Origin: an uncultured Methanosarcinales archaeon
Lineage (GTDB): Archaea > Nanobdellota > Nanobdellia > Woesearchaeales > GW2011-AR9
Assembly (NCBI GenBank): GCA_964434885.1
Contig: CAYSWQ010000001.1
Span: 11,327-75,326 of the forward strand
Direction: 5' to 3'
Length of the DNA stretch: 64,000 nt
The notes beneath the pieces are model-generated. The model worked only from the letters and a program-made list of their open reading frames with translations. It was not told the DNA's origin and searched no databases. Both the position numbers and the translations under genes were made by a program. Shown piece by piece: positions 2,881 through 64,000 of the stretch (position 1 is its first letter; each line of letters starts with the position of its first letter).

Positions 2881-3819
2881 ATGAGTCTTGTTCAATTGTT
2901 AAGGAAAATTGTTAATTCTTCAAGTAAGAAAATAGTTACCTTGGGTTTGGGAGCTAGTTTGGTTATGGGATGTACTGTAAATAACTACGAATATATTGGT
3001 GGAGATAAGGGTAGCCAGAAAGATTTTAATGTAATAAAAGATATAGGAGTTCAAGATAAACCTGCAGACATGACCTTAATCGTTCCTACAAGTGATTTTT
3101 TTACTGGACCCGACAAACCATTAATTTATCCTATTATTGATATGGGAAATGATTTTGGGACTGATTTGAGACCAATAAAAAAAGATTCTTCTGTTGCTGA
3201 TTTGGTTGTTCCTGATATAATACAACCTGATGTTGCTGTTCCTGACCAATATGTTCCTGATTTGATGGTGCCAGATAAGATGCAGCAAGATTTATTAGTT
3301 CCAGACAAATTAATTCCAGATTTGCCTAAACCAGATATAGTAGTACCAGATCAAAAGATAGCTGATAGTTATGTTCCTGATTTAAATCAACCAGATGTGG
3401 CTGTTCCTGACCAATATGTTCCTGATTTGATGGTTCCAGATAAAGGTGTTGTTTGTCCAACAAATATGGTTTTGGTAAAATACACTGGTGGTTTGTTTTG
3501 TATTGATAATAAAGATATATTTGGGAAAACTAAAAGTATGGGTATTGCAGATTGTAAAACACGAGGAAAAAATGGAAAAGTATGTAATGTGAAAGAAATT
3601 GATTTGGCTGTTACACATATAGGGATTAAACCTTCTCACGAACTTGCTACAACTGATTCAACTGGGTGTTGTTGCCCTTGTGGTTCATATAAAGGACCAA
3701 GCCAACATTTTTGGACTCCAACAGGCGGTGCCCATGGTTTTAAAAGAGGAAAATGTGAATGTTGGTTTGAAAATAGGCCAAATGTAAAGACATTTTATAG
3801 GTGTTGTGTTAAACCTTAA
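2881..3819 (+). CDS. Secreted/lipoprotein with tandem (V/I)PD repeats and a Cys-rich C-terminal domain
   Basis: N-terminal signal with lipobox-like LVMGC; at least 12 xPDxxVPD repeats; C-terminal 10-Cys module (CCCPCG...CECW...RCC). Confidence 0.5.
   Translation: MSLVQLLRKIVNSSSKKIVTLGLGASLVMGCTVNNYEYIGGDKGSQKDFNVIKDIGVQDKPADMTLIVPTSDFFTGPDKPLIYPIIDMGNDFGTDLRPIKKDSSVADLVVPDIIQPDVAVPDQYVPDLMVPDKMQQDLLVPDKLIPDLPKPDIVVPDQKIADSYVPDLNQPDVAVPDQYVPDLMVPDKGVVCPTNMVLVKYTGGLFCIDNKDIFGKTKSMGIADCKTRGKNGKVCNVKEIDLAVTHIGIKPSHELATTDSTGCCCPCGSYKGPSQHFWTPTGGAHGFKRGKCECWFENRPNVKTFYRCCVKP
3229..3443 (+). repeat. Two copies of a 50-nt near-identical direct repeat (3229-3278 and 3394-3443) inside the PD-repeat gene
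   Basis: gatgt(t/g)gctgttcctgaccaatatgttcctgatttgatggt(g/t)ccagataa occurs twice, 48/50 identical, and encodes the duplicated peptide VAVPDQYVPDLMVPDK. Confidence 0.6.
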
Positions 3820-3872: not shown

Positions 3873-4226
3873 ATGTCTGATATTAATTATAAGCAAGTTA
3901 TTCTAGTGAGGCAGGATTTGAAGTTGCCGAAAGGAAAGTTAGCAGCTCAAGCAGCACATGCTTCTGTAGAGGCAGTATTGCGTTCTGATGAAGAGATGGT
4001 TAAGAGATGGAGAATGGAAGGAATGGCTAAAATTGTGATTAAAGTTAAAGATGAGAAAGAATTAGTTAAATACTTTCAACAAGCCAAAGATGAAGATATT
4101 GTTGCTTCTTTGATTACTGATGCAGGTAAGACAGTGATTGCTCCGGGAACTAAAACTTGTGTGGGAATTGGCCCTAGTGAAGTAGAAGAAATTAACAAGA
4201 TAACTGGAAATCTCCCACTATTATAG
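3873..4226 (+). CDS. pth2: Peptidyl-tRNA hydrolase, archaeal type (Pth2)
   Basis: KQVILVRQDLKLPKGKLAAQAAHASV... matches the Pth2 family; 117 aa. Confidence 0.8.
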   Translation: MSDINYKQVILVRQDLKLPKGKLAAQAAHASVEAVLRSDEEMVKRWRMEGMAKIVIKVKDEKELVKYFQQAKDEDIVASLITDAGKTVIAPGTKTCVGIGPSEVEEINKITGNLPLL

Positions 4227-4264
4227 AAACTTTTTTAAATGAACTCCCTTCTAAATAAAAAGAA

Positions 4265-4582
4265 ATGAAGATTCCTAAAACTAGAAAAAGACATTGTCCA
4301 CATTGTAAAAAACACTCTGAACATAAAGTAATTAATCAGAAGTTTAAAGGACTGAATAAAACTCATACTCAGACCAAAGGTTCTCAAACTAGAACTAGAA
4401 AGAGAGGATTGAGAGGTGGCGTTGGTAATAAAGGAAGATTATCTCGGCCAGCAATCGCAAAATGGAAAAGAACTGGAGCTAAAACCTCTAAAAAAACAGA
4501 TTTAAGATATACTTGCCAAGATTGTAAAAAAACACATATTCAAGCTAAAGGAATCAGAGCTAAAAAATTTGAACTAAAATGA
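4265..4582 (+). CDS. rpl44e: 50S ribosomal protein L44e
   Basis: CPHCKKHSEHKV...KTDLRYTCQDCKK is the L44e zinc-ribbon pattern. Confidence 0.8.
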   Translation: MKIPKTRKRHCPHCKKHSEHKVINQKFKGLNKTHTQTKGSQTRTRKRGLRGGVGNKGRLSRPAIAKWKRTGAKTSKKTDLRYTCQDCKKTHIQAKGIRAKKFELK

Positions 4583-4767
4583 AAGCAGAAAACCCACAAC
4601 CAAAAAGCAAATTTATCAAAGTTAGATGCGCTAAATGTAAAAATGAGCAGATTATCTATGGTAATGCTTCAAGTATCGTTAAATGTTTAGTTTGTAATAA
4701 AGAATTAGTTTATCCAACAGGAGGAAAATCAAACATTTCCGGTCGGGTATTAGAAGTTTTAGAGTAA
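4579..4767 (+). CDS. rps27e: 30S ribosomal protein S27e
   Basis: FIKVRCAKCKNEQIIYGNASSIVKCLVCNKELVYPTGGK is the C4 zinc finger of S27e. Confidence 0.8.
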   Translation: MKAENPQPKSKFIKVRCAKCKNEQIIYGNASSIVKCLVCNKELVYPTGGKSNISGRVLEVLE

Positions 4768-4802
4768 GTTTTTTAAATATACTCCTTTCTTATTATTAAA
4801 CG

Positions 4803-5573
4803 ATGTTATACAAACGAGAAGGTCTACCAGAAACTGATGAAATAGTTCTTTGTAAAGTTACAAAGATCTTTCCCAATTCTGTTTTTGCTGAATTGGTTGA
4901 GTATAGAGATTCTGGAATGATTCACATTTCTGAAGTTTCTCCGGGAAGAATTAGAAATCTGAGAGATTATGTTAGTGTGGGTAGGCAAATTGTCTGTAAA
5001 GTGCTTAGAATTGATCGAGAGCGAGGCCATATTGACCTTTCTTTGCGAAGAGTTAATTCTAATCAAAGAAGACAAAAATTAGAAGAAGTAAAACAAGAAA
5101 TTAAATCAGAAGGTTTAATCTCAAATTTAGCTAAAAGATTGGATATTCCTTTTAGAGAACTATATCAAAAAATATCAAAGAAGGTTTTTGAAGAATATTC
5201 TCATTTGCATTTATGTTTCAAGGATGTTGTTTCTGGAGATGTAGATTTGGTTAAATTAGGTTTGGAAAAGAAAATTGCAGAAGGTTTGACTACTGCAATC
5301 AAAGATAAATTTAAACCCCCTAAAATTAGGATTAGTGGTGAAATTAGATTAGAAACTTATACTTCTGAAGGATTGGAAAAAATCAAAAAAACATTGGGTG
5401 AAATCCAAAAAATATCTAAAAAGATTGATTTGTTTTATTTGGGAGCTGGAAGATATAAATTTTCTGTAGAAGAAGCAGATTACAAACCAGCAGAAAAGAA
5501 ATTTAAGCAGGCTCAGAAAATCGTTGATAAATTTAATGATAAAATATCTAAAGCTGAGTTTATCCGAGAATGA
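4803..5573 (+). CDS. eif2a: Translation initiation factor 2 alpha subunit (aIF2-alpha)
   Basis: N-terminal S1 domain (PETDEIVLCKV...GMIHISEVSPGRIRNLRDYVSVGRQIVCKVLRID); conserved L44e-S27e-aIF2alpha-Nop10 order. Confidence 0.85.
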   Translation: MLYKREGLPETDEIVLCKVTKIFPNSVFAELVEYRDSGMIHISEVSPGRIRNLRDYVSVGRQIVCKVLRIDRERGHIDLSLRRVNSNQRRQKLEEVKQEIKSEGLISNLAKRLDIPFRELYQKISKKVFEEYSHLHLCFKDVVSGDVDLVKLGLEKKIAEGLTTAIKDKFKPPKIRISGEIRLETYTSEGLEKIKKTLGEIQKISKKIDLFYLGAGRYKFSVEEADYKPAEKKFKQAQKIVDKFNDKISKAEFIRE

Positions 5574-8982: not shown

Positions 8983-9213
8983 TTGATTATGGATCATCGC
9001 ATAAAATCTTGGTTGATAGTAATATTATTTATTGTAATCATGGTAGGAATTGGTTTTTTACTAGGATCTAATCAAAGTATTGTTGGGGGGTCAGTAGTTA
9101 AAACAGTTGCTTGTTCTGATAATAGTGATTGTGATGATCGGATTAGTGCGACTGAAGATATTTGTAGAAATCCAGGGACAATTAATTCTTTATGTGTGAA
9201 TAAAAGGAAATAA
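8983..9213 (+). CDS. Small membrane-anchored Cys-rich protein
   Basis: 76 aa with N-terminal TM and a 6-Cys extracellular tail (CSDNSDCDDRISATEDICRNPGTINSLC). Confidence 0.35.
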   Translation: MIMDHRIKSWLIVILFIVIMVGIGFLLGSNQSIVGGSVVKTVACSDNSDCDDRISATEDICRNPGTINSLCVNKRK

Positions 9214-10572
9214 TTATTTTCTTTTGATAATGATAATACTAGTGCCAATGATTATTAAAGTTAGTGCTATTCCACCAATGAGATAGTTGGGAGGAATGTT
9301 TTTTAATTCGCTGATTGTTAAACCAGTAATGAGGTTTTTATTGGTGGAAAGAGGAGATTCAACTATGGTTTTTTGAGCCAATAGTTTAGTACTAGGAATT
9401 ACTTTAAATATTTCTTGATTAACACATTTTCTTTTTTCTTCTGGTTTTTTATCCATAGTTCCACAAGCGTTTTTATCAAAACATTTTCTAACATTGTAAT
9501 TATTAGTGCAATTAGTGTCCCAGGGATAACAATACCACTTTTCTTGACAATTAGATGAATAGGTGGTTGAGACATAGTTTTGAGTGGGTGTAGAATTATA
9601 ATTTAAACTTCCTCCTCCAGAACTACTAGATGAACTTCCCGATGATGTTCCTCCTCCCGAAGATGATCCTCCGCCGGAAGAGCTACTAGAAGAAGAAGAA
9701 GAAGAGCTACTAGATGAATTGCTACTTGAACTAGAAGAAGTAGTGGTGTTGTTAACAATGACATAAATTGTTTCATTATCACTTAAATTGCCATCAGAAA
9801 CAACAAAAGTTAAATTATGAGTTCCTACTTGAGTAGAGTTAGGTAGCCAAGAAAATAATTGACTGATGAAAGTTGCGCCAGTTGGTAAGTTGATAACGGA
9901 ATAAGTAAGATTATCTGATTCATTATCTGTTGCATTGATAGTGAAATTTAAAGTGTTGTTTTCAGTGATGGTGTGGTTACTGATTGAATTTAAGATTGGA
10001 GCGGTGTTGGTTGTGTTTGTGGTGTTGGTTGTTGAATTGGTGGTGGAAGTGTTGTTGGTTAAAATAGTATTAGTTGAATTATAAGTGCAATTTTGTTTAA
10101 TCCAGTCTACACTGTCAATGTTTGTATCTTGTCCATTGGGATTTCTAGCTAGACATTCATCGGAAACATTATTTGAATTTCCATCGGGAGCATTATCTGA
10201 AGTATTGCCATCATCCCAATCAGCATAAGTAACATTATCTATCTGGTTGCTTTCGTTATCATAAAGAATTATTTGTCCATTATTATTTTGGGCCCCACTT
10301 GGATTAAGTATTGTGTAATAACTTCCTGCAGAGATTGTTCCAGAAAGAGTTTCATTTACTGGGGTGCTATCTATTAAAGCTAAAATCCAACCAGTGATGT
10401 TAATTGAAGAAGTGTTGTTGTTATATATTTCAAACCATTCATCACTTGATCCTGTTTTTCCACTGTTATCCCAATCTGTTTGTGGATCAACAACAAATTC
10501 ATTGATTAAAACATTGGCAGAAACTAAATAACACAAACATAGCAAAAATAATACTCCTATCCAAAACCTCAT
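9214..10572 (-). CDS. Surface protein: signal peptide, lamin-tail domain (LTD), He_PIG-like Ig domain, poly-Ser linker, Cys-rich module, C-terminal TM anchor
   Basis: VLINEFVVDP...EWFEIYNN is the LTD signature; APILNSISNHTITENNTLNFTINATDNESDNLTYSV is Ig-like; a 40-residue Ser/Gly run; C-terminal hydrophobic helix plus KRK; more than 30 N-x-S/T sequons. Confidence 0.6.
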   Translation of the reverse strand: MRFWIGVLFLLCLCYLVSANVLINEFVVDPQTDWDNSGKTGSSDEWFEIYNNNTSSINITGWILALIDSTPVNETLSGTISAGSYYTILNPSGAQNNNGQIILYDNESNQIDNVTYADWDDGNTSDNAPDGNSNNVSDECLARNPNGQDTNIDSVDWIKQNCTYNSTNTILTNNTSTTNSTTNTTNTTNTAPILNSISNHTITENNTLNFTINATDNESDNLTYSVINLPTGATFISQLFSWLPNSTQVGTHNLTFVVSDGNLSDNETIYVIVNNTTTSSSSSSNSSSSSSSSSSSSSSGGGSSSGGGTSSGSSSSSSGGGSLNYNSTPTQNYVSTTYSSNCQEKWYCYPWDTNCTNNYNVRKCFDKNACGTMDKKPEEKRKCVNQEIFKVIPSTKLLAQKTIVESPLSTNKNLITGLTISELKNIPPNYLIGGIALTLIIIGTSIIIIKRK

Positions 10573-10657
10573 AAAATAAGATAAACTTTGATTTGGTTTT
10601 AAAAGATTTCGTAATTACAAAACAATGTTGTTAGAATAAGAATTAAAAAAAATAAAA

Positions 10658-10930
10658 TTATAAAACTGTTTTGATACTCTCAATGTTCCGAGCGATATCG
10701 TGGCCTTTCTTAGTTAATTCTAATAACTTTAATCGACCTTCTTTTTTGAAATTAATCAAGTTGGCTTTTTGCATTTCCTGCAAGATCTTCACAACATGTG
10801 AATAAGTGCAATCAATTTGTTTTGCCAAAACAGATGCATAAACCTGGGAGTTAGCATTCTTTAATTCTACTAACATCATAGCTGGTTTTTCACGGAAAAA
10901 CACGTCAAATATTTCTTTATTTTTAACCAA
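10658..10930 (-). CDS. Small winged-helix transcriptional regulator
   Basis: 90 aa; YASVLAKQIDCTYSHVVKILQEMQKANLI is an HTH recognition region; divergent to XPD. Confidence 0.5.
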   Translation of the reverse strand: MVKNKEIFDVFFREKPAMMLVELKNANSQVYASVLAKQIDCTYSHVVKILQEMQKANLINFKKEGRLKLLELTKKGHDIARNIESIKTVL

Positions 10931-13505: not shown

Positions 13506-14153
13506 TTACTCTAAATATCTTTTCTTAGAATTAGTATATTTGTAATGAATCTCGCCAAACTTACAATCTTGGCAAGTTGAATCTAAGTTGATCCAATTGT
13601 TTTCTGTTTTGTAAGAAGAGATTGCTTCTGGAATTTTAACTTGGATGTAAACATGTCTAGGAACAAAAACAAATCTGGTTTGGAAACCGACAGATTGTAA
13701 TAATGAAGATAAGAGAATTGAACTGTCGTCACAATCTCCGGCAGTAGATGAGAAGCTCTCTTGAGGAGTTTTATAATATTCATATTTCAAAGGGTCATTA
13801 ACGTAGTTGAAGTTCTTTTGGACAAAGTAAAACAAAGCTTTGGCATTGCAAACTTTATGGGTGTTTGGACAAGATTGAGCTACTATCTGATCTGCTATTC
13901 TTTTAATATCTGAAGTAGTTTGAATATAATTTCTGATATCGGAAGAAGTAATGTTGGGAATCGATAGTTTAGGTAGGTTTAATTGATTTAAAGTAGGAAT
14001 CTGCTTTGGTTCAGGATTTTGTTTTAATCCATAACTAGGAACTACCCACATAACAACAATTAAAATAAGAAATAAACCAATAACAATTTTGAAGAATATT
14101 TTATAACCTGGTTCTTTTTCATCTTCAATAGTTTCTTCGTGATGTTCTTTCAT
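13506..14153 (-). CDS. Membrane-anchored transglutaminase-like cysteine protease superfamily protein
   Basis: N-terminal TM; core GDCDDSSILLSSLLQSVGF...PRHVYIQV gives the Cys-His-Asp arrangement of transglutaminase-like domains. Confidence 0.6.
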   Translation of the reverse strand: MKEHHEETIEDEKEPGYKIFFKIVIGLFLILIVVMWVVPSYGLKQNPEPKQIPTLNQLNLPKLSIPNITSSDIRNYIQTTSDIKRIADQIVAQSCPNTHKVCNAKALFYFVQKNFNYVNDPLKYEYYKTPQESFSSTAGDCDDSSILLSSLLQSVGFQTRFVFVPRHVYIQVKIPEAISSYKTENNWINLDSTCQDCKFGEIHYKYTNSKKRYLE

Positions 14154-14188: not shown

Positions 14189-15889
14189 TTAATAACAAGT
14201 TTCTTGAGCATCCGTTAAAGAAAGAGTGAATCCACTTAATAATTTGTTTACGCCAGAGTTGGGATGAGTAATTGGAGAACTAGTTTGTCCAACTCTCAAA
14301 ATAATAACTTCTTTACCAACAACTTTTACCTTAGAATCAACCAAATCTGTTTTCTCTATTTCAATAGGAACTTTGATTGGGGCACCAGTACAATAAGAAG
14401 GAATTGTTTTAATAGTCCAAGCTAAAGCTCCAGCCGCAGTATAACTACCTTGTTTGGCATGTAGATTATAAATTTCTCCATCACTAGTGAGAATTGCAAT
14501 ATCGTGAACTTGGCATTTCTTAGTATTAGGACATTCGGTTTGATATTCTTTTAGTAAAGAACCACATTTTTTGTTAATACAAAACTGGCCAGGACTACAT
14601 TCATTGTTGTCATTGCAAGTTGTGGTTGTAGTAGTAATTGTTTTCGTTTTGTTCTTTTCATATTCTTCTTCATCATCACAAACATTATTTTTGTTTTTAT
14701 CTAAACAACAACCACCAACAGTTTCAATGTGGGGAGGTGTACAAACAAAAGGTTTACTTTCTTCAAAAGCATATTGGGTTTGGATTGCTTTTCCAGAAAG
14801 AGCCCCAGTTTTCATTAAAACAGCAAAAACAATGATAAAAACAATTAAACCAATTCCTCCAAAAATTAGTAATTTCTTTTTATTTTTATTTACCGACGAT
14901 TCTTTATCTCTAACATGAGAACTAGTTTTGGTTGTTTTTGATTGGTGAGTTTTTTTAGTATGGTCTTTCTTACGTCCCATTAACATATTGAGATGAGAAG
15001 GTTTTCTTTTACTTTTCTTGTGTTTTTCATAACGATGAGATAAAACTTCTTTGTAAGCTTCATCTGCTTGTTCTTCAGTCCAACCAGCTTGCAATAATTC
15101 TCTTCTAATTACAGAATAAGGTTTATCTGCATTCATGCTTTGGTGAATATACTTCATCAAATCTAAGGGGAGATCTGGAGTGTGGGCTCTTTTGTATAGA
15201 ACAAATAAAAGTACTCCAGCAGCTGTGAAAATTGTGATTAAGATAAATAAAACTGTTTTAGTTAAAGGTCTTGATTTTTCTACATTAGACAATTTTGTGG
15301 TGATATTACTTACTTTAGTGTCAGTGCTTTTAACATTTTTTTGTAATGAAGCTAATCCAGTGGAAACTGAATTAACTGTTTGAGAAGTTTGAGAAACTGT
15401 ATTTTTAATTGATTGTTGACCTGTTTTTAAACTAGTAAGATCGGAACCTAATTTTTGAACATTGAGATTTATTTTTTGGATATTTAGTGTATTAGTGTTC
15501 AGAGATTTATTTAATGCAGTTAGTTCTGATTGTAAACTATTTATTTGTTGAACCACATTAAAATAAGATGTATTGGTTGAGGTTGTATTTGTTGCATTTC
15601 TAAGAATTTTTGTTTTTTTACATTGAACTCCAACACAAGTGTATTTTGGACCAAATTTAGTTTGACAAGTGGTTGTGTTTCGACAGTAATATTTGTAATA
15701 ATTAGTTGTGTTGGTTGTTGAGGTGGTGTTGGAAGAAATTGTTTTTTGACAAGTATAATTGACACAAGAGTAAGCAGTACTATTAAATTTAGTTTTACAA
15801 GAGAGATCAGAAGTACAACTTATAGCTAAACTAACAGCTACAAAAACTAGTAAAAACACTCCCAGGATTACTAAAAACCTCTTTTTCAT
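14189..15889 (-). CDS. Cys-rich, sequon-rich two-pass membrane surface protein with coiled-coil segment
   Basis: Signal peptide; N-terminal Cys-rich domain with many N-x-T sites; coiled-coil; TM1, about 110-aa basic cytoplasmic loop, TM2; C-terminal Cys-rich extracellular domain with TTTTTTC mucin-like run. Confidence 0.5.
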   Translation of the reverse strand: MKKRFLVILGVFLLVFVAVSLAISCTSDLSCKTKFNSTAYSCVNYTCQKTISSNTTSTTNTTNYYKYYCRNTTTCQTKFGPKYTCVGVQCKKTKILRNATNTTSTNTSYFNVVQQINSLQSELTALNKSLNTNTLNIQKINLNVQKLGSDLTSLKTGQQSIKNTVSQTSQTVNSVSTGLASLQKNVKSTDTKVSNITTKLSNVEKSRPLTKTVLFILITIFTAAGVLLFVLYKRAHTPDLPLDLMKYIHQSMNADKPYSVIRRELLQAGWTEEQADEAYKEVLSHRYEKHKKSKRKPSHLNMLMGRKKDHTKKTHQSKTTKTSSHVRDKESSVNKNKKKLLIFGGIGLIVFIIVFAVLMKTGALSGKAIQTQYAFEESKPFVCTPPHIETVGGCCLDKNKNNVCDDEEEYEKNKTKTITTTTTTCNDNNECSPGQFCINKKCGSLLKEYQTECPNTKKCQVHDIAILTSDGEIYNLHAKQGSYTAAGALAWTIKTIPSYCTGAPIKVPIEIEKTDLVDSKVKVVGKEVIILRVGQTSSPITHPNSGVNKLLSGFTLSLTDAQETCY

Positions 15890-56023: not shown

Positions 56024-56391
56024 TAGAGTAGAGTGGAATAAGCCACCTTCTGTCAGACCCAAAATATTCATTGAATATCGATGGTCTGTTTTAGCATTCT
56101 ACTAAGCGTGTCTAAGCACTTGCACCAACCGGGTCCAGAAAAAGCCTAAGCTTTTTAGGACCCCCGAGTTATACTCGGAGGGTTTCGCCGTTTCATCGTT
56201 CCCTTTGAGGACGTCGATGGATTAACTCGCTTATTTCTCAACAAGCTTCGCCATTTTCATTCCATAACTCAAAGGACGTGTCGTTTCTAAGCCAGAGCCA
56301 AGAGATTTCCTCTTCTCCGAAGAGCGGTCTTTGTGTGGTGGGTGGACTTTCCTCAGTCAAATTGACCGTTAGCTAAATACCACTACTACTC
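56024..56391 (-). ncRNA. rnpB: RNase P RNA (archaeal type A-like)
   Basis: Minus-strand transcript contains CR-I/P4 5' strand GAGGAAAGUCCACC and CR-V/P4 3' strand ACAGAAGGUGGCUUAU; 5' GAGUAGUAGUGG and 3' CCACUCUACUC form P1; the region is protein-free and GC-enriched relative to flanks. Confidence 0.75.
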
Positions 56392-61820: not shown

Positions 61821-64000
61821 ATGAGGTGGAAAGTTGTTAATTGGATTTTTTGTTTTTGGTTATTTATTCTGAGTGTTGAAGGGAGTGTACTGATTAATGA
61901 AGTTATGTATGATCCTGGGCAGTGTGCAGATAGTTATTGTGAATGGGTAGAGTTGTATAATTCAGGAAATGAAACTTTTGATTTGCAAGGTTGTTTTTTT
62001 GATGGAGATAATTTATCTGGAAACATTTCTGCTAATGAATATTTAGTTTTAGTTAGAAATAAAGATAATTTTCAAAAGTATTTTGGTGGGAATAATTTAG
62101 TTGAGATTTCTTTGAGTTTAGTTAATAAAGGAAAAGAATTGAAATTAAATGGTAATTGTTCAGATATTTTTGATTATAGTTCTTTTGTTAGTTTAGCTAA
62201 GGGTAACAACTATACTTTAGAAAGAAATAACAAAGGAAAATGGGAAAAAAGTTTAGTTGATGGTGGAACTCCGGGAAAGAAAAATAGTGTTGTTAATTTT
62301 AATCAAGATTATTCTAAATTAAAAATTACTGAGGTGATGGTTGATCCTTTTGGTAAGGATAATGAACAAAAACCACTTGGAGAGTGGATAGAAGTTTATA
62401 ATTCTGGGGGGAAACCAATTAATTTAGGTGGGTTGGTGTTGTATGATTCGGAAGATGATCACGAATTATTTATTAGTCAAAGTAATTTTGATAAAGTTGT
62501 GTTGGGTGGTGGAGAATATGGGGTAATATATAGGAACCGAGATTCAGATTTTGATTTGAGTAAAACAAAAGATAAAGTGAGGTTATATACTGGATATCCT
62601 CTTTCTAATGCGGTTTTGATAGATCAAGTTAGTCTTTCCAATTCAAAAGAAGGAATGAGTTGGAGCAAATTCGGAAATAATTGGTATCAAACTAAACCAA
62701 CTCCGGGAAAAGAGAATATTTATACAGAGAAATGTGATTGGATGATTGATTTGGAATTAGATAATTCGATCTTTCAAAATAAAGGTTTGGATTTTAAAGT
62801 TAATGTAAAAAGAAATTTTGGAGTAGAAGAAAATATTTCTGTTTCTGGTAAGATTGAAGATTTGTTTGGGAAAGTTGTAAGAAGTTATACTCCCTGGACA
62901 AATTACCGGATAGTTGGTTCTAGTAGCAAATCTTATTCTCCAAATTTAAAAGAAGGAAATTACCAATTAATTTTTGAATTGAGTGGATTGAAGTGTAATG
63001 ATTCGGAGTGGGAAAATAACCAAGTTCGTCGATTAGTTTCAATCAATCCGGCATATCAAAAAAATGATTCTAAATTGGAGATTGAGAGATTGTATTTGGG
63101 TTCGGATAATTCAGTAGAATGGGGAGATCAATTTCAAATTAAATTAAATTTGTATAAAGGACAAAATAGTAAATCTACTGTAGAGGTTTATGTTGAGAAA
63201 GACGGAGAAGTGATAAGCAAAAGAACAAAAATTAATCTGTATGATGAATATAAAAATTATCCTTTGGTTTTGCCGATACAATTAATTCCTAATTGTAATG
63301 AAAAAATAGAAGATGGAAAAGGAAAACTTGTTTTGAAAGGATTAGGTTTGGAAGTGGGAAAAGAATTTGAAATTTCGGGAGTAGATAAAGAGGTTTGTAA
63401 AGATTATTTAGATTATGTAAAAGAAGACAATAAGAAAAAAGATAAGATTCGGAAACAAAATGCTTATCAAGTTTTGGAATTTCCTAGGACCTTGTATTCA
63501 GGCGAGGTTTATTCAGTAAAAGTACAGCTTTTGGGAGATGCTGATGAACATGATTTTAAAGTTTGGAGTTATCTTTACAAAGGCAATAAATGTGTTTCTT
63601 GTTTTGGTGGAAATCGAGAAAGTAATTTAATTGATTTTAAATTGAAAGAAGATGAAGTTAAGCAAATTGAGATGTTGATTAAAGTTGATGAAGAAGTTTC
63701 AATGGGTGAGTATCGATTGAAAGTTAAGTTGAATAAAGATGGATTAAAAACAAATCGGGAGTTGATGAAAAGCGTTTATATTAAACCTAAGGATAAGAAG
63801 AAAGTAATTAATCAATCTACTTCTTTATTTGGGATCTCCGAATTGAATGATAAATCTGTGAATGAGAGAACAAGTGTTGATTCTCGGAAAGAAAAAATAA
63901 TTCATGAACTTCCTGGAATTGTGGTTTATGAATCTAGTTCGCAGAAAGCAAATAATTTAATTCCTTATTTATTGGTGGGTGTTTTTGGATTATTAAGTGT
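61821..64000 (+). CDS. Large surface protein with signal peptide and two lamin-tail domains, 3' partial (runs off the window)
   Basis: MRWKVVNWIFCFWLFILSVEG signal; LTD1 VLINEVMYDPGQCADSYCEWVELYNSG; LTD2 LKITEVMVDPFGKDNEQKPLGEWIEVYNSGG; open frame to the window end with a hydrophobic stretch (IPYLLVGVFGLLS) near the edge; not in the ORF track because it has no stop. Confidence 0.55.
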   Translation, partial: MRWKVVNWIFCFWLFILSVEGSVLINEVMYDPGQCADSYCEWVELYNSGNETFDLQGCFFDGDNLSGNISANEYLVLVRNKDNFQKYFGGNNLVEISLSLVNKGKELKLNGNCSDIFDYSSFVSLAKGNNYTLERNNKGKWEKSLVDGGTPGKKNSVVNFNQDYSKLKITEVMVDPFGKDNEQKPLGEWIEVYNSGGKPINLGGLVLYDSEDDHELFISQSNFDKVVLGGGEYGVIYRNRDSDFDLSKTKDKVRLYTGYPLSNAVLIDQVSLSNSKEGMSWSKFGNNWYQTKPTPGKENIYTEKCDWMIDLELDNSIFQNKGLDFKVNVKRNFGVEENISVSGKIEDLFGKVVRSYTPWTNYRIVGSSSKSYSPNLKEGNYQLIFELSGLKCNDSEWENNQVRRLVSINPAYQKNDSKLEIERLYLGSDNSVEWGDQFQIKLNLYKGQNSKSTVEVYVEKDGEVISKRTKINLYDEYKNYPLVLPIQLIPNCNEKIEDGKGKLVLKGLGLEVGKEFEISGVDKEVCKDYLDYVKEDNKKKDKIRKQNAYQVLEFPRTLYSGEVYSVKVQLLGDADEHDFKVWSYLYKGNKCVSCFGGNRESNLIDFKLKEDEVKQIEMLIKVDEEVSMGEYRLKVKLNKDGLKTNRELMKSVYIKPKDKKKVINQSTSLFGISELNDKSVNERTSVDSRKEKIIHELPGIVVYESSSQKANNLIPYLLVGVFGLLS

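What the first reader, a model, noticed from the sequence alone, without database searches (positions are those of the whole stretch)
9214..10572. Heavily sequon-decorated LTD plus Ig-like surface protein with C-terminal anchor
The protein has a signal peptide and a lamin-tail domain (VLINEFVVDP...EWFEIYNN), followed by a He_PIG/cadherin-like Ig domain. Then come a 40-residue Ser/Gly linker, a Cys-rich module and a single C-terminal TM helix. It carries more than 30 N-x-S/T sequons, with runs such as NTSTTNSTTNTTNTTNT. In small-genome episymbiotic archaea, LTD proteins are candidate host-attachment factors. A second LTD protein lies at 61821 onward, so this window carries two of them. A small wHTH regulator (10658-10930) lies immediately upstream.
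Basis: partly seen in the sequence, partly recalled or inferred. Interest (0 to 1): 0.55.

Follow-up and report, generated by a model that had tools for sequence, protein, structure and literature searches.

The report
Sugar-site-rich archaeal surface protein, LTD head
This gene encodes a membrane-anchored cell-surface protein of a probable DPANN archaeon, with a lamin-tail-domain head, an Ig-like domain and unusually many potential sugar-attachment sites; it is a fast-evolving member of a known kind of protein, and its likely role in binding a partner cell is untested.

Summary
ORF 9214-10572(-) encodes a 452-aa protein with these parts, in order:
- a signal peptide;
- a lamin-tail domain (Pfam E = 4e-13; the lamin-B1 Ig-fold is the top fold hit);
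- an Asn/Thr linker;
- a He_PIG Ig-like domain (E = 1e-11, seen only when scanned alone);
- a 47-residue Ser/Gly linker;
- a 6-Cys module, a stalk, a TM helix and a KRK tail.

It has exactly 30 N-x-S/T sequons, not "more than 30". That is 6.6 per 100 aa, against 1.9 or fewer for every other ORF of at least 100 aa that lies wholly within the window. The excess over shuffles (z = 4.1) lies in the folded domains, not the linkers.

New findings:
- The LTD head recurs on different anchors: a TM helix, PEP-CTERM, a dockerin, or Ig arrays.
- The 6-Cys module belongs to a large uncurated repeat family (778 representative proteins). It forms a recurrent C-terminal anchor cassette in DPANN proteins.
- Its resemblance to thrombospondin repeats is weak at the fold level and fails at the sequence level.
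- The gene diverges faster than its syntenic neighbours.
- It probably has its own promoter, so a regulatory link to the wHTH gene is unsupported.

The best reading is a glycan-shielded surface binding protein. Host attachment is plausible but untested. It is a new member of a known kind, of moderate interest.

The parts
9214..10572 (-). Complete gene for the 452-aa surface protein (stop codon 9214-9216)
   Evidence: ORF list. The same gene is called on JGI and Logan contigs that are 100% identical in DNA.
10516..10572 (-). Signal peptide, aa 1-19 (MRFWIGVLFLLCLCYLVSA), predicted cleavage after VSA
   Evidence: Read from the sequence: an n-region with Arg, a hydrophobic core and a small-x-small site. 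The LTD begins right after comparable N-termini in P0002, P0003 and P0004. AF2 gives helix 2-15. No signal-peptide predictor was available.
10069..10518 (-). Lamin-tail-domain head module, aa 19-168. The Pfam LTD core is aa 19-117. A conserved acidic C-terminal segment follows, with the Cys140/Cys162 pair (DECLAR...CTY) and a sequon conserved in 5 of 5 homologues (DGN-x-S/T-DN).
   Evidence: PF00932 E = 4.4e-13. Alignment A1 shows 56-72% identity across five proteins, with both Cys invariant. Foldseek top hit is the lamin-B1 Ig-fold. 10 sequons against 4.7 expected. 22 Asp+Glu against 3 Lys+Arg.
10003..10068 (-). Asn/Thr-rich linker, aa 169-190 (TILTNNTSTTNSTTNTTNTTNT)
   Evidence: Read from the sequence. 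AF2 pLDDT is below 50 over aa 159-192. It holds five overlapping sequons, no more than its composition predicts.
9754..10002 (-). He_PIG (putative Ig / cadherin-like) domain, aa 191-273
   Evidence: PF05345 at 45.2 bits (cut-off 24) and Big_9 at 35.2 bits when scanned alone. The closest solved sequence is a cadherin-like module of SraP, 4m03, E = 0.002. Six beta-strands are predicted, but at pLDDT 50-60 only. 11 sequons against 3.8 expected, z = 4.6.
9607..9747 (-). Ser/Gly low-complexity linker, aa 276-322 (47 residues)
   Evidence: Composition is 32 S, 10 G, 4 T and 1 N. AF2 pLDDT is below 50. At the DNA level there are only short imperfect repeats.
9424..9549 (-). Single copy of a 6-Cys module of about 42 aa, aa 342-383 (CQEKWYCYPWDTNCTNNYNVRKCFDKNACGTMDKKPEEKRKC)
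9292..9423 (-). Membrane-proximal stalk, aa 384-427, with the NLITGL motif
   Evidence: The region is conserved in P0006 and P0056, and the NLITGL motif also in P0100. [ILV]TG lies within 35 aa before the TM helix in 8 of 31 TM-anchored 6-Cys proteins, against a 4.4% background. AF2 confidence is low.
9217..9291 (-). C-terminal TM helix (aa 428-449) and cytoplasmic KRK tail (aa 450-452)
   Evidence: Hydropathy scan. AF2 gives helix 428-451 at pLDDT 83-88. The basic tail fits the positive-inside rule (established knowledge).
10597..10604 (-). TATA-box-like TTTTAAAA, centred about 28 nt upstream of the ATG: a putative own promoter with a leaderless or short-leader mRNA
Evidence: Sequence read.
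10645..10657 (-). Oligo-T tract TTTTATTTTTTTT directly after the wHTH stop codon: a putative archaeal terminator separating the two genes
   Evidence: Sequence read. Inference only.
10658..10930 (-). Upstream neighbour: a small winged-helix protein of 90 aa. Its adjacency is conserved in one relative, but it is probably a separate transcription unit.
   Evidence: HTH_27 at 23.1 bits against a cut-off of 22.2. 98.6% identical in L087.
61821..64000 (+). Second LTD protein of the window. It is partial (more than 726 aa, runs off the window end), with a signal peptide and two LTDs, and it is not sequon-enriched.

Best explanation
The gene encodes a type-I membrane-anchored cell-surface glycoprotein of a probable DPANN archaeon. 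It most likely works as a binding protein held away from the membrane.

Proposed mechanism:
1. The Sec system exports the protein and the signal peptide is removed.
2. The C-terminal helix, with its KRK tail in the cytoplasm, anchors it in the membrane.
3. From the membrane outwards it presents a short stalk, one disulfide-stabilised 6-Cys module, a flexible 47-residue Ser/Gly tether, an Ig-like He_PIG spacer, an Asn/Thr linker and, at the tip, an acidic LTD head.
4. The oligosaccharyltransferase AglB attaches N-glycans to many of the roughly 27 usable sequons. These lie mainly on the two folded domains, so the glycans would coat and stabilise them and leave a limited protein surface for ligand contact.
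5. The LTD head is the functional binding unit. The likeliest target is a surface structure of a partner or host cell, or an extracellular polymer.

What is shown and what is inferred:
- Shown: the domain architecture, the topology signals, the sequon excess and where it sits, reuse of the head on alternative anchors, and faster divergence than the neighbours.
- Inferred: actual glycosylation, the disulfides, the binding function and the identity of the ligand.
For: Architecture and topology:
-.
- All 30 sequons lie between aa 52 and 354, inside the predicted ectodomain.
- Cys counts are even in each extracellular module, 2 in the LTD module and 6 in the 6-Cys module.

Sequon excess beyond composition:
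- Whole protein z = 4.1.
- LTD z = 3.0, He_PIG z = 4.6, combined 21 against 8.5 expected (z = 5.2). The mirror motif S/T-x-N occurs only 12 times.
- N-x-T outnumbers N-x-S 22 to 8, although Ser is the more abundant residue.
- One sequon is conserved in 5 of 5 homologues. Homologues P0001 and P0002 are also enriched (z = 4.3 and 5.6).
- The protein is the single outlier among the window's complete ORFs of at least 100 aa.

The head as the functional unit:
- The same LTD module, 32-72% identical, sits on Ig arrays of about 740 aa (L005, L006, P0002) and on a bare C-terminal hydrophobic anchor with an Arg-rich tail (L007).
- It also sits on PEP-CTERM signals (P0163, P0171), on dockerins (P0158, P0159) and at the end of a 2131-aa protein (L017).

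Fast evolution at a conserved locus:
- In L087 the flanking XPD is 80% and the wHTH 98.6% identical. The surface protein is 66% identical and differs by a whole domain of about 235 aa.
- In L085 its C-terminal region is the most diverged of five syntenic proteins, 54% against 62-79%.

Precedent:
[quoted passage not shown] It has surface proteins with 13-49 predicted N-glycosylation sites, Ig-like folds and C-terminal TM helices (bioRxiv 10.1101/2023.10.27.564410).
- Cell-surface proteins are the most diversified gene class in Nanoarchaeota populations (PMC6142677).
Against: - No ligand, host or glycan is known.
- No AglB/STT3 gene was identified in the window. Only the large multi-TM ORFs of 42-53 kb were scanned for it, so the glycosylation machinery is assumed rather than seen.
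- The role of prokaryotic LTDs is unresolved in the literature (PMC6085458).
- No strain-level variation is seen. Contigs from three samples are 100.000% identical in DNA over 8.8-20.6 kb.
- The divergence excess over neighbours is modest in L085 (54% against 62% for Metallophos).
- The second LTD protein in the window is not sequon-rich.
- Assignment of the organism to DPANN, and to an episymbiotic lifestyle, is indirect.
Confidence: 0.5

Rival explanations
1. The protein is a structural envelope component: an S-layer-associated or S-layer-anchoring glycoprotein. It would build or tether the cell envelope rather than recognise a partner.
For: The layout is a signal peptide, beta-rich glycosylated ectodomains, a Ser/Thr-rich membrane-proximal stalk and a C-terminal TM helix. 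That is the design of haloarchaeal S-layer glycoproteins (own knowledge) and of the proposed SlaB-like anchoring proteins of Nanobdella. S-layer proteins also diverge fast between genera.
Against: - It is only 452 aa, with two flexible linkers (pLDDT below 50) that fit a tether better than a lattice.
- The head module is reused on dockerin and PEP-CTERM proteins and on soluble Ig arrays. That is unexpected for a lattice subunit.
- An orthologue carries an extra N-terminal domain.
- There is no PGF-CTERM or archaeosortase signal.
- No expression data are available.
Confidence: 0.2
2. The protein is a substrate-capture receptor. The LTD head would bind extracellular DNA or another polymer for scavenging, as suggested by LTDs fused to bacterial extracellular nucleases.
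For: - LTDs occur at the N-terminus of membrane-anchored extracellular nucleases such as ExeM. Deleting the LTD lowers in vitro nuclease activity (PMC6085458).
- LTD-nuclease proteins occur in DNA-degradation loci of marine sediment bacteria (PMC8289736).
- DPANN archaea generally depend on external nucleotides (own knowledge).
- The orthologue P0001 carries an extra N-terminal domain whose motifs look hydrolase-like (my reading of the sequence; no Pfam hit).
Against: - The LTD module is strongly acidic, 22 Asp+Glu against 3 Lys+Arg, which is unfavourable for direct DNA binding.
- The protein has no nuclease or other catalytic domain.
- The neighbouring Metallophos protein has no hydrophobic N-terminus or TM segment.
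- In ExeM the LTD was dispensable for extracellular DNA degradation in vivo.
Confidence: 0.12
3. The sequon richness is a by-product of an AT-rich genome and of Asn/Ser/Thr-rich low-complexity sequence. On this view the protein is an ordinary surface protein with little or no glycosylation.
For: The window has about 31% GC. The protein is 13.7% Asn and 27% Ser+Thr. The linkers alone show no excess over composition.
Against: - The excess over composition-matched shuffles lies in the folded domains (z = 5.2), and the mirror motif is far rarer (12 against 21).
- N-x-T is preferred over N-x-S, and one sequon is conserved in 5 of 5 homologues.
- No other ORF of at least 100 aa in the same AT-rich window exceeds 1.9 sequons per 100 aa.
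Confidence: 0.1
4. The protein is a virus- or provirus-encoded receptor-binding protein inserted in the chromosome.
For: There is a weak sub-threshold Pfam hit to a tailspike C-terminal domain (E = 0.0015). One weak LTD relative occurs on an IMG/VR contig.
Against: - There is no PHROG match.
- Only 1 weak hit was found in the scan of the viral-contig collection (2.9 million contigs).
- The gene sits among housekeeping genes (XPD, Fpg, exosome, ribosomal proteins), with synteny conserved in two relatives.
- Composition is uniform across the region.
Confidence: 0.03

Closest known systems
[quoted passage not shown]
   Same: They share a signal peptide, Ig-like beta-sandwich domains, many predicted N-glycosylation sites (13-49) and a C-terminal TM helix. 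The genome encodes aglBDE. They are proposed to act in the envelope or in host interaction.
   Different: No LTD or 6-Cys module is reported for them. They have more Ig-like folds (4-7). Sequence homology to the focal protein was not tested here. Focal sequon density is 6.6 per 100 aa; the one Nanobdella protein whose length is given has 15 sites in 1000 aa.
Prokaryotic lamin-tail-domain proteins (Pfam PF00932), such as the extracellular nuclease ExeM of Shewanella oneidensis
   Same: The LTD sits directly after the signal peptide of a membrane-associated extracellular protein. The fold matches the lamin Ig-fold.
   Different: The focal protein has no nuclease or other catalytic domain. Its head is highly acidic. 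It belongs to a narrow subfamily with a conserved Cys pair and the DPQTDW and DGN-x-S/T-DN motifs, found mostly in Pacearchaeota-, Woesearchaeota- and Nanoarchaeota-labelled sequences.
Haloarchaeal S-layer glycoprotein (Halobacterium salinarum / Haloferax volcanii) (own knowledge)
   Same: It has an N-glycosylated ectodomain, a Ser/Thr-rich stretch next to the membrane that is O-glycosylated in haloarchaea, and a C-terminal hydrophobic anchor.
   Different: It is much larger and forms a lattice. It has no LTD or He_PIG domain. In Haloferax the anchor is a PGF-CTERM processed by archaeosortase, and no such signal is present here.
Serine-rich repeat adhesin SraP of Staphylococcus aureus (PDB 4m00-4m03)
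   Same: Its cadherin-like modules are the closest solved sequences to the He_PIG domain (E = 0.002). It also combines binding modules with a long glycosylated Ser-rich region on a surface-anchored protein.
   Different: It is a bacterial protein anchored to the cell wall and O-glycosylated through a dedicated export pathway (own knowledge). There is no overall homology. The similarity is a functional analogy plus one shared domain class.
Thrombospondin type-1 repeat (TSR; Pfam TSP_1), as in TSP-1, properdin, complement C6-C8, semaphorin-5A and apicomplexan MIC2

Membership tests
Lamin tail domain (Pfam PF00932) | Match to the family HMM above the curated gathering score | tested here: met
   50 bits against a cut-off of 34.3, E = 4.4e-13, covering model positions 6-108 of 109. 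The isolated module scores 51.7 bits.
Lamin tail domain (Pfam PF00932) | Ig-like beta-sandwich fold resembling the lamin tail | tested here: met
   AF2 gives the core pLDDT 81-90. The top Foldseek hit in the PDB is human lamin-B1 426-558 (3jt0_A, probability 1.00, TM 0.57 on the target), and 3umn_A also matches.
He_PIG putative Ig domain (Pfam PF05345) | Match to the family HMM above the gathering score | tested here: met
   45.2 bits against a cut-off of 24, E = 1.3e-11, model positions 1-95 of 96, when aa 190-276 are scanned alone. It is not reported in the full-length scan, probably because of the composition-bias correction.
He_PIG putative Ig domain (Pfam PF05345) | Ig-like beta-sandwich fold | tested here: inconclusive
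   Six beta-strands are predicted between aa 193 and 276, but at pLDDT 50-60, because no homologues were in the alignment.
Thrombospondin type-1 repeat (Pfam TSP_1) | Sequence-profile similarity to TSRs | tested here: not met
   No TSP_1 hit at E <= 10 for the module, or at E <= 1 for multi-copy proteins. The repeat profile finds no TSR chain in the PDB. hhalign of 72 repeat units against 7 authentic TSRs gives 3.4% probability.
Thrombospondin type-1 repeat (Pfam TSP_1) | Elongated three-stranded fold with stacked Trp/Arg layers and three disulfides | tested here: inconclusive
Archaeal N-glycoprotein (AglB substrate) | N-x-S/T sequons in an extracytoplasmic region, in excess of chance | tested here: met
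   30 sequons, all at aa 52-354. z = 4.1 overall and 5.2 in the folded domains. N-x-T is preferred, and one site is conserved in 5 of 5 homologues.
Archaeal N-glycoprotein (AglB substrate) | The organism encodes the oligosaccharyltransferase AglB | not testable with these tools
   None of the four large multi-TM ORFs at 42-53 kb is STT3/AglB; the other ORFs of the window were not scanned for it. The rest of the genome is not available. AglB is present in the cultivated DPANN archaeon Nanobdella.
Archaeal N-glycoprotein (AglB substrate) | Glycans demonstrated on the protein | not testable with these tools
   This needs glycoproteomics.
Archaeal S-layer protein | Lattice formation and very high expression | not testable with these tools
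   No expression or imaging data are available.
Archaeosortase / PGF-CTERM-anchored surface protein | C-terminal PGF-CTERM or related sorting signal | tested here: not met
   No NCBIfam sorting-signal model matches; the nearest is GG_III-CTERM at E = 0.97, 9.4 bits against a cut-off of 22. The C-terminus is a plain TM helix plus KRK. Some relatives of the head do carry PEP-CTERM (PF07589).
6-Cys repeat family (uncurated; consensus SCTENWSCTDWSECINGQQTRTCTDLNNCGTTENKPAETQSC) | All six Cys, both Trp, and the Arg, Asp and Pro of the repeat in register | tested here: met
   Focal aa 342-383 aligns with 71 other units, keeping the invariant C, W, C, C, C and the near-invariant C, W, R, C, D, P. A profile built from the family hits the window ORF at E = 7e-12.
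Winged-helix regulator (neighbour gene 10658-10930) | Match to a wHTH family HMM above the gathering score | tested here: met
   HTH_27 scores 23.1 bits against a cut-off of 22.2, which is marginal. Eleven other HTH families score below their thresholds.
Winged-helix regulator (neighbour gene 10658-10930) | Functional link to the surface-protein gene: co-transcription or conserved pairing | tested here: inconclusive
   The adjacency is conserved in L087 but absent at the LTD genes of L005, L006 and P0003. Terminator-like and promoter-like elements lie between the two genes.

The most novel reading that the evidence does not exclude
Two readings are not excluded.

1. The C-terminal cassette is an undescribed, widespread membrane-proximal anchoring device of DPANN surface proteins. 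It consists of a low-complexity tether, one 6-Cys module, an ITG-motif stalk, a TM helix and a basic tail. Its 6-Cys module may be a prokaryotic counterpart of the eukaryotic thrombospondin type-1 repeat fold.

2. The focal protein uses this cassette to present a glycan-shielded LTD head that serves as the cell's partner-recognition adhesin.
Probability: 0.2. Interest if true: 0.65.

Novelty: new member of a known kind. Interest (0 to 1): 0.4.

Why it matters
How DPANN archaea recognise and hold on to partner cells is still largely unknown, and candidate surface proteins are the obvious place to look.

- **A concrete candidate.** This protein has a defined head (aa 20-168) that could be expressed and tested for binding.
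- **The head as a portable unit.** The same head is carried on TM, PEP-CTERM, dockerin and Ig-array scaffolds in related organisms. That points to the LTD module, not the whole protein, as the unit to study.
- **An unusual sequon load.** The density, about one site per 15 residues, is concentrated on the folded domains. If the sites are used, this would be a dense glycan coat on a small archaeal surface protein.
- **An annotation gap.** The 6-Cys repeat family has 778 representative proteins at E <= 1e-3 and no Pfam or NCBIfam model. A curated model would improve annotation of many surface proteins from uncultivated archaea.

None of this overturns current views. It is an incremental, testable lead.

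Tried and rejected
- **Full-length Pfam scan for the Ig domain.** It returned nothing for He_PIG. This was a false negative, resolved by scanning the domain alone.
- **First homologue search with the full protein.** It was swamped by low-complexity words and gave only 4 hits. Repeating it with the LTD-module alignment gave 22 more.
- **Word-indexed search with the C-terminal 130 aa.** It found only a 100%-identical fragment. The exhaustive HMMER search was needed to reveal the repeat family.
- **Strain-level variability.** The three other contigs carrying the gene are 100% identical in DNA, so there is nothing to analyse. No read data are accessible.
- **Taxonomy and sample origin.** The cluster-member lookup gave no organism names. 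Sample identifiers were not found in the paper library.
- **Viral origin.** PHROGs and the viral contig scan were negative.
- **Slippage-prone DNA repeats in the linkers.** Only short imperfect repeats are present.
- **N-glycosylation genes in the window.** None was identified; only the large multi-TM ORFs and their neighbours at 42-53 kb were scanned.
- **Extra N-terminal domain of orthologue P0001.** It has no Pfam match, and the 3' end of that contig is chimeric.
Full report
**1. The observation**

The ORF at 9214-10572 on the minus strand is real. It has an ATG start and encodes 452 aa. JGI gene calling reports the same ORF on contigs from independent samples. The window is archaeal, because it carries an archaeal RNase P RNA at 56027-56387. 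It is AT-rich, at about 31% GC.

- **Signal peptide.** The N-terminus MRFWIGVLFLLCLCYLVSA|NV looks like a signal peptide. This is read from the sequence; AF2 gives helix 2-15.
- **LTD.** Pfam PF00932 matches aa 19-117 at 50 bits against a cut-off of 34.3, E = 4.4e-13.
- **Asn/Thr linker.** aa 169-190, containing NTSTTNSTTNTTNTTNT.
- **He_PIG domain.** aa 191-273.
- **Ser/Gly linker.** aa 276-322, which is 47 residues rather than 40.
- **Six-cysteine module.** aa 342-383.
- **Stalk, TM helix and tail.** One C-terminal TM helix at aa 428-449, followed by KRK.

Two corrections are needed. First, the He_PIG domain is missed when the whole protein is scanned. It is clear when aa 190-276 are scanned alone: PF05345 at 45.2 bits against a cut-off of 24, E = 1.3e-11. 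The full-length miss is most likely due to HMMER's correction for biased composition. Second, there are exactly 30 N-x-S/T sequons, or 27 if adjacent overlapping ones count once.

**2. Is the sequon load more than chance?**

Yes.
- Shuffling the protein gives 16.4 +/- 3.3 sequons, and none of 5000 shuffles reaches 30.
- The excess is not caused by the low-complexity linkers, which show none.
- The excess sits in the two folded domains. The LTD module has 10 against 4.7 expected (z = 3.0). He_PIG has 11 against 3.8 (z = 4.6). Together they have 21 against 8.5 (z = 5.2).
- The mirror motif S/T-x-N has the same compositional expectation but occurs only 12 times in those domains.
- N-x-T outnumbers N-x-S 22 to 8, although Ser is more abundant than Thr (all).
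- One sequon, in the loop DGN-x-S/T-DN, is conserved in all five members of the close family. Homologues P0001 and P0002 are also enriched (z = 4.3 and 5.6).
- Within the same AT-rich window, no other complete ORF of at least 100 aa exceeds 1.9 sequons per 100 aa, against 6.6 here.
- All sequons lie between aa 52 and 354, inside the predicted ectodomain.

The second LTD protein, at 61821 onward, has two LTDs (E = 3e-25) but is not enriched (z = 0.9). Heavy decoration is therefore a property of this protein and its close family, not of LTD proteins in general. The window has exactly two LTD ORFs.

**3. Structure**

A full-length AlphaFold2 model built on a composite alignment has mean pLDDT 59, in a beads-on-a-string pattern:
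- Confident: the LTD core (81-90), the 6-Cys module (82-92) and the TM helix (83-88).
- Below 50: both linkers and the stalk.
- Uncertain: He_PIG shows six beta-strands but only at pLDDT 50-60, because it had no homologues in the alignment.

The top Foldseek hit of the model in the PDB is the Ig-fold tail of human lamin B1 (3jt0_A, probability 1.00, TM 0.57 on the target). This confirms the LTD independently of sequence.

The closest solved sequence to the He_PIG domain is a cadherin-like module of the staphylococcal serine-rich adhesin SraP (E = 0.002).

**4. The LTD head is a portable module**

Aligning the close relatives gives a unit of about 150 residues (aa 20-168), 56-72% identical to the focal sequence. 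It has an invariant Cys pair (DECLAR...CTY) and the motifs DPQTDW and DEW-x-E-x-YN.

The same head, at 32-72% identity, is attached to very different bodies:
- Big_13-type Ig arrays of about 740 aa without a TM anchor, in a Pacearchaeota MAG (L005), an unclassified archaeal MAG (L006) and P0002;
- a C-terminal hydrophobic anchor with an Arg-rich tail and nothing else, in a Woesearchaeota MAG (L007, 190 aa);
- PEP-CTERM sorting signals (P0163, P0171);
- N-terminal dockerin repeats (P0158, P0159);
- the C-terminus of a 2131-aa protein in an Aenigmatarchaeota single-cell genome (L017).

One member is labelled by NCBI as [quoted passage not shown]. More distant relatives, at 27-38% identity, occur in Patescibacteria, Chloroflexota and other bacterial MAGs.

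The simplest reading of one conserved head on many alternative display devices is that the head is the functional unit, presumably a ligand-binding one. It is strongly acidic, with 22 Asp+Glu against 3 Lys+Arg.

**5. The Cys-rich module belongs to a large uncurated repeat family**

- The word-indexed search found nothing but a fragment of the same protein.
- An exhaustive HMMER search with the C-terminal 130 residues found 778 representative proteins at E <= 1e-3. The match was confined to the 6-Cys stretch, with up to ten copies per protein.
- In 147 of the 150 best hits there are 555 copies. The consensus is SCTENWSCTDWSECINGQQTRTCTDLNNCGTTENKPAETQSC.
- Neither Pfam nor NCBIfam has a model for it. 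A protein with seven tandem copies gets no hit at all.

A single copy recurs in a fixed C-terminal cassette: a variable ectodomain, a low-complexity linker, one 6-Cys module, a stalk of about 40 residues often containing [ILV]TG, a TM helix and a basic tail. Examples are L017 6500-7324 (Aenigmatarchaeota), L005 1533-2369 (Pacearchaeota), L086 1261-2034, P0100, P0147 and P0006. The [ILV]TG motif precedes the TM helix in 8 of 31 TM-anchored family members, against a 4.4% background.

**6. Is the 6-Cys module a thrombospondin repeat?**

The support is weak, however:
- Foldseek is not significant. Its best hit, at E = 3.4, is a membrane-attack-complex chain, and its fourth is Unc5A.
- The repeat profile finds no TSR in the PDB by sequence.
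- There is no Pfam TSP_1 hit.
- hhalign of the repeat alignment against seven authentic TSRs from TSP-1 and properdin gives 3.4% probability.

I therefore report a fold-level resemblance as a lead, and not as family membership.

**7. Genomic context and evolution**

The gene lies among housekeeping genes. On one side are XPD helicase, a CxxCxxCC protein and seryl-tRNA synthetase. On the other are a calcineurin-like phosphoesterase, DUF357, Fpg, Nop10, eIF2-alpha, ribosomal proteins, the exosome subunits and SBDS.

Contigs from three samples are 100.000% identical in DNA to the window over 8.8-20.6 kb. They represent one clonal population, so no strain variation can be assessed.

Two related but distinct genomes keep the locus:
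- **L087.** XPD is 80% identical and the wHTH 98.6%. The surface protein (P0001) is only 66% identical over aa 21-205. It also carries an extra domain of about 235 residues between the signal peptide and the LTD. That domain has no Pfam match. The 3' end of this low-coverage contig is chimeric (GC 0.63).
- **L085.** On this Tara Oceans contig the C-terminal cassette is 54% identical. The small convergent ORF is 73% identical, Metallophos 62%, DUF357 75% and Fpg 79%.

The surface protein is thus the fastest-diverging gene at a conserved locus, and its domain content changes. This fits a protein exposed to partners or predators, although the excess in L085 is modest. P0003 sits next to the same exosome/Rpb6/SBDS cluster in a 160-kb contig, which suggests a positionally related locus with yet another body.

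**8. The wHTH neighbour**

The ORF at 10658-10930 is co-directional and 85 nt upstream. It only just passes Pfam HTH_27 (23.1 against 22.2 bits). Several points argue against a dedicated regulatory link:
- An oligo-T tract (TTTTATTTTTTTT, 10645-10657) follows its stop codon.
- A TTTTAAAA box at 10597-10604 is centred about 28 nt upstream of the focal ATG. From the known layout of archaeal promoters and terminators, this suggests separate transcription and a leaderless or short-leader mRNA. That step is an inference.
- The wHTH is missing next to the LTD genes of L005, L006 and P0003.
- It is under far stronger constraint than the surface protein.

**9. Function**

The literature in the library holds no study linking LTDs to host attachment in DPANN archaea. 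The published position is that the role of prokaryotic LTDs is unresolved. One suggestion is targeting to membrane-associated structures, and there is a partial contribution to nuclease activity in ExeM (PMC6085458; PMC8289736).

[quoted passage not shown] That organism also encodes aglBDE (bioRxiv 10.1101/2023.10.27.564410). Surface proteins are the most diversified gene class in Nanoarchaeota populations (PMC6142677).

My estimates for the readings considered:
- **Tethered, glycan-coated binding protein whose LTD head contacts a partner-cell surface or extracellular polymer:** about 0.5.
- **Envelope or S-layer-associated structural protein:** about 0.2.
- **Substrate capture such as extracellular DNA:** about 0.12. 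This is disfavoured by the acidic head and the lack of any catalytic domain.
- **Sequon richness as a compositional by-product:** about 0.1. This is disfavoured by the directional and domain-specific controls.
- **Viral origin:** about 0.03. There is no PHROG match and only one weak hit among viral contigs.

**10. Novelty and verdict**

The protein is a new, fast-evolving member of a known kind: N-glycosylated, Ig-fold-containing, TM-anchored archaeal surface proteins, and LTD-containing secreted proteins.
- the LTD head is modular and reused on alternative anchors;
- the large 6-Cys repeat family has no curated model and forms a recurrent C-terminal anchor cassette;
- the contrast in divergence with the flanking genes has been quantified.

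Glycosylation, the ligand and the lifestyle of the organism remain untested. No AglB gene was identified in the window, although only part of it was scanned. Interest is moderate, at 0.4.

Noticed in passing
window 9424-9549 (focal aa 342-383); also P0007, P0008, P0024, L005 1533-2369, L017 6500-7324, L086 1261-2034: A six-cysteine repeat of about 42 residues (consensus SCTENWSCTDWSECINGQQTRTCTDLNNCGTTENKPAETQSC). It occurs in 778 representative proteins at E <= 1e-3, with up to 10 tandem copies. No Pfam or NCBIfam model covers it. A single copy forms a recurrent membrane-proximal cassette in DPANN surface proteins. It resembles thrombospondin repeats only weakly, at the fold level.
   Followed up: yes
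window 8983-9213 (+): A small ORF of 74-76 aa, convergent with the focal gene, whose stop codon directly abuts the focal gene's stop. It has an N-terminal TM segment plus a 4-Cys motif (CSDNSDCDD...DICRNPGTINSLC). It is 73% identical at the same position in the Tara contig L085, so it is probably a real gene. No family match was found.
   Followed up: partly
window 10658-10930 (-) and L087 517-738: The small wHTH protein is 98.6% identical in a relative whose flanking XPD is 80% and LTD protein 66% identical, at about 79% DNA identity across the region. That is unusually strong purifying selection for a 90-aa DNA-binding protein. It suggests a core chromatin or transcription role rather than a local regulator.
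   Followed up: partly
window 9292-9423 (focal aa 384-427); P0006, P0056, P0100, L086: A conserved (N/S)LITG(L/F) motif lies in the stalk just before the C-terminal TM helix. [ILV]TG lies within 35 residues of the TM helix in 8 of 31 TM-anchored 6-Cys proteins, against a 4.4% background. Its significance is unknown; it could be a processing or packing site.
   Followed up: partly
window 14189-15889 (-) and 13506-14153 (-): A 566-aa protein with hydrophobic segments at the N-terminus and near aa 209 and 337, 20 Cys, weak coiled-coil-type hits and 11 sequons. It lies next to a transglutaminase-like protein (PF01841, E = 2e-10) that has an N-terminal hydrophobic segment. This may be a second envelope-related gene pair.
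   Followed up: no
window 3207-3278 and 3372-3443: A 72-bp direct repeat, 91.7% identical, inside ORF 2881-3819 (312 aa, 13 Cys). It was seen as secondary blastn hits.
   Followed up: no
window 1-64000; 56027-56387 (-): No tRNA gene was detected by ARAGORN in 64 kb. An archaeal RNase P RNA is present (105.5 bits).
   Followed up: no
L087 about 2140-2307: The 3' end of this low-coverage ENA contig (2.2x) jumps from about 35% to 63% GC and encodes an unrelated regulator-like peptide. It is probably a chimeric assembly, so the apparent C-terminus of P0001 is an artefact.
   Followed up: yes
P0158, P0159 (249 aa each): These proteins fuse two dockerin-type repeats (PF00404) to the same LTD head (57% identity). 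That implies display on a cohesin-bearing scaffold in some relatives.
   Followed up: no
L005 1533-8157 (Pacearchaeota RIFOXYC1_FULL_38_15): Six consecutive co-directional genes for secreted or TM-anchored proteins end in the LTD gene. One (4103-5176) shares its C-terminal domain with the LTD proteins P0003, P0004 and P0162. This suggests domain shuffling within a surface-protein gene cluster.
   Followed up: partly
L017 40-6435 (Aenigmatarchaeota SAG AM-311-K14): A protein of at least 2131 aa made of many repeated beta-rich units, with the LTD at its extreme C-terminus. It is immediately followed by a 274-aa protein carrying the linker / 6-Cys / TM cassette.
   Followed up: no
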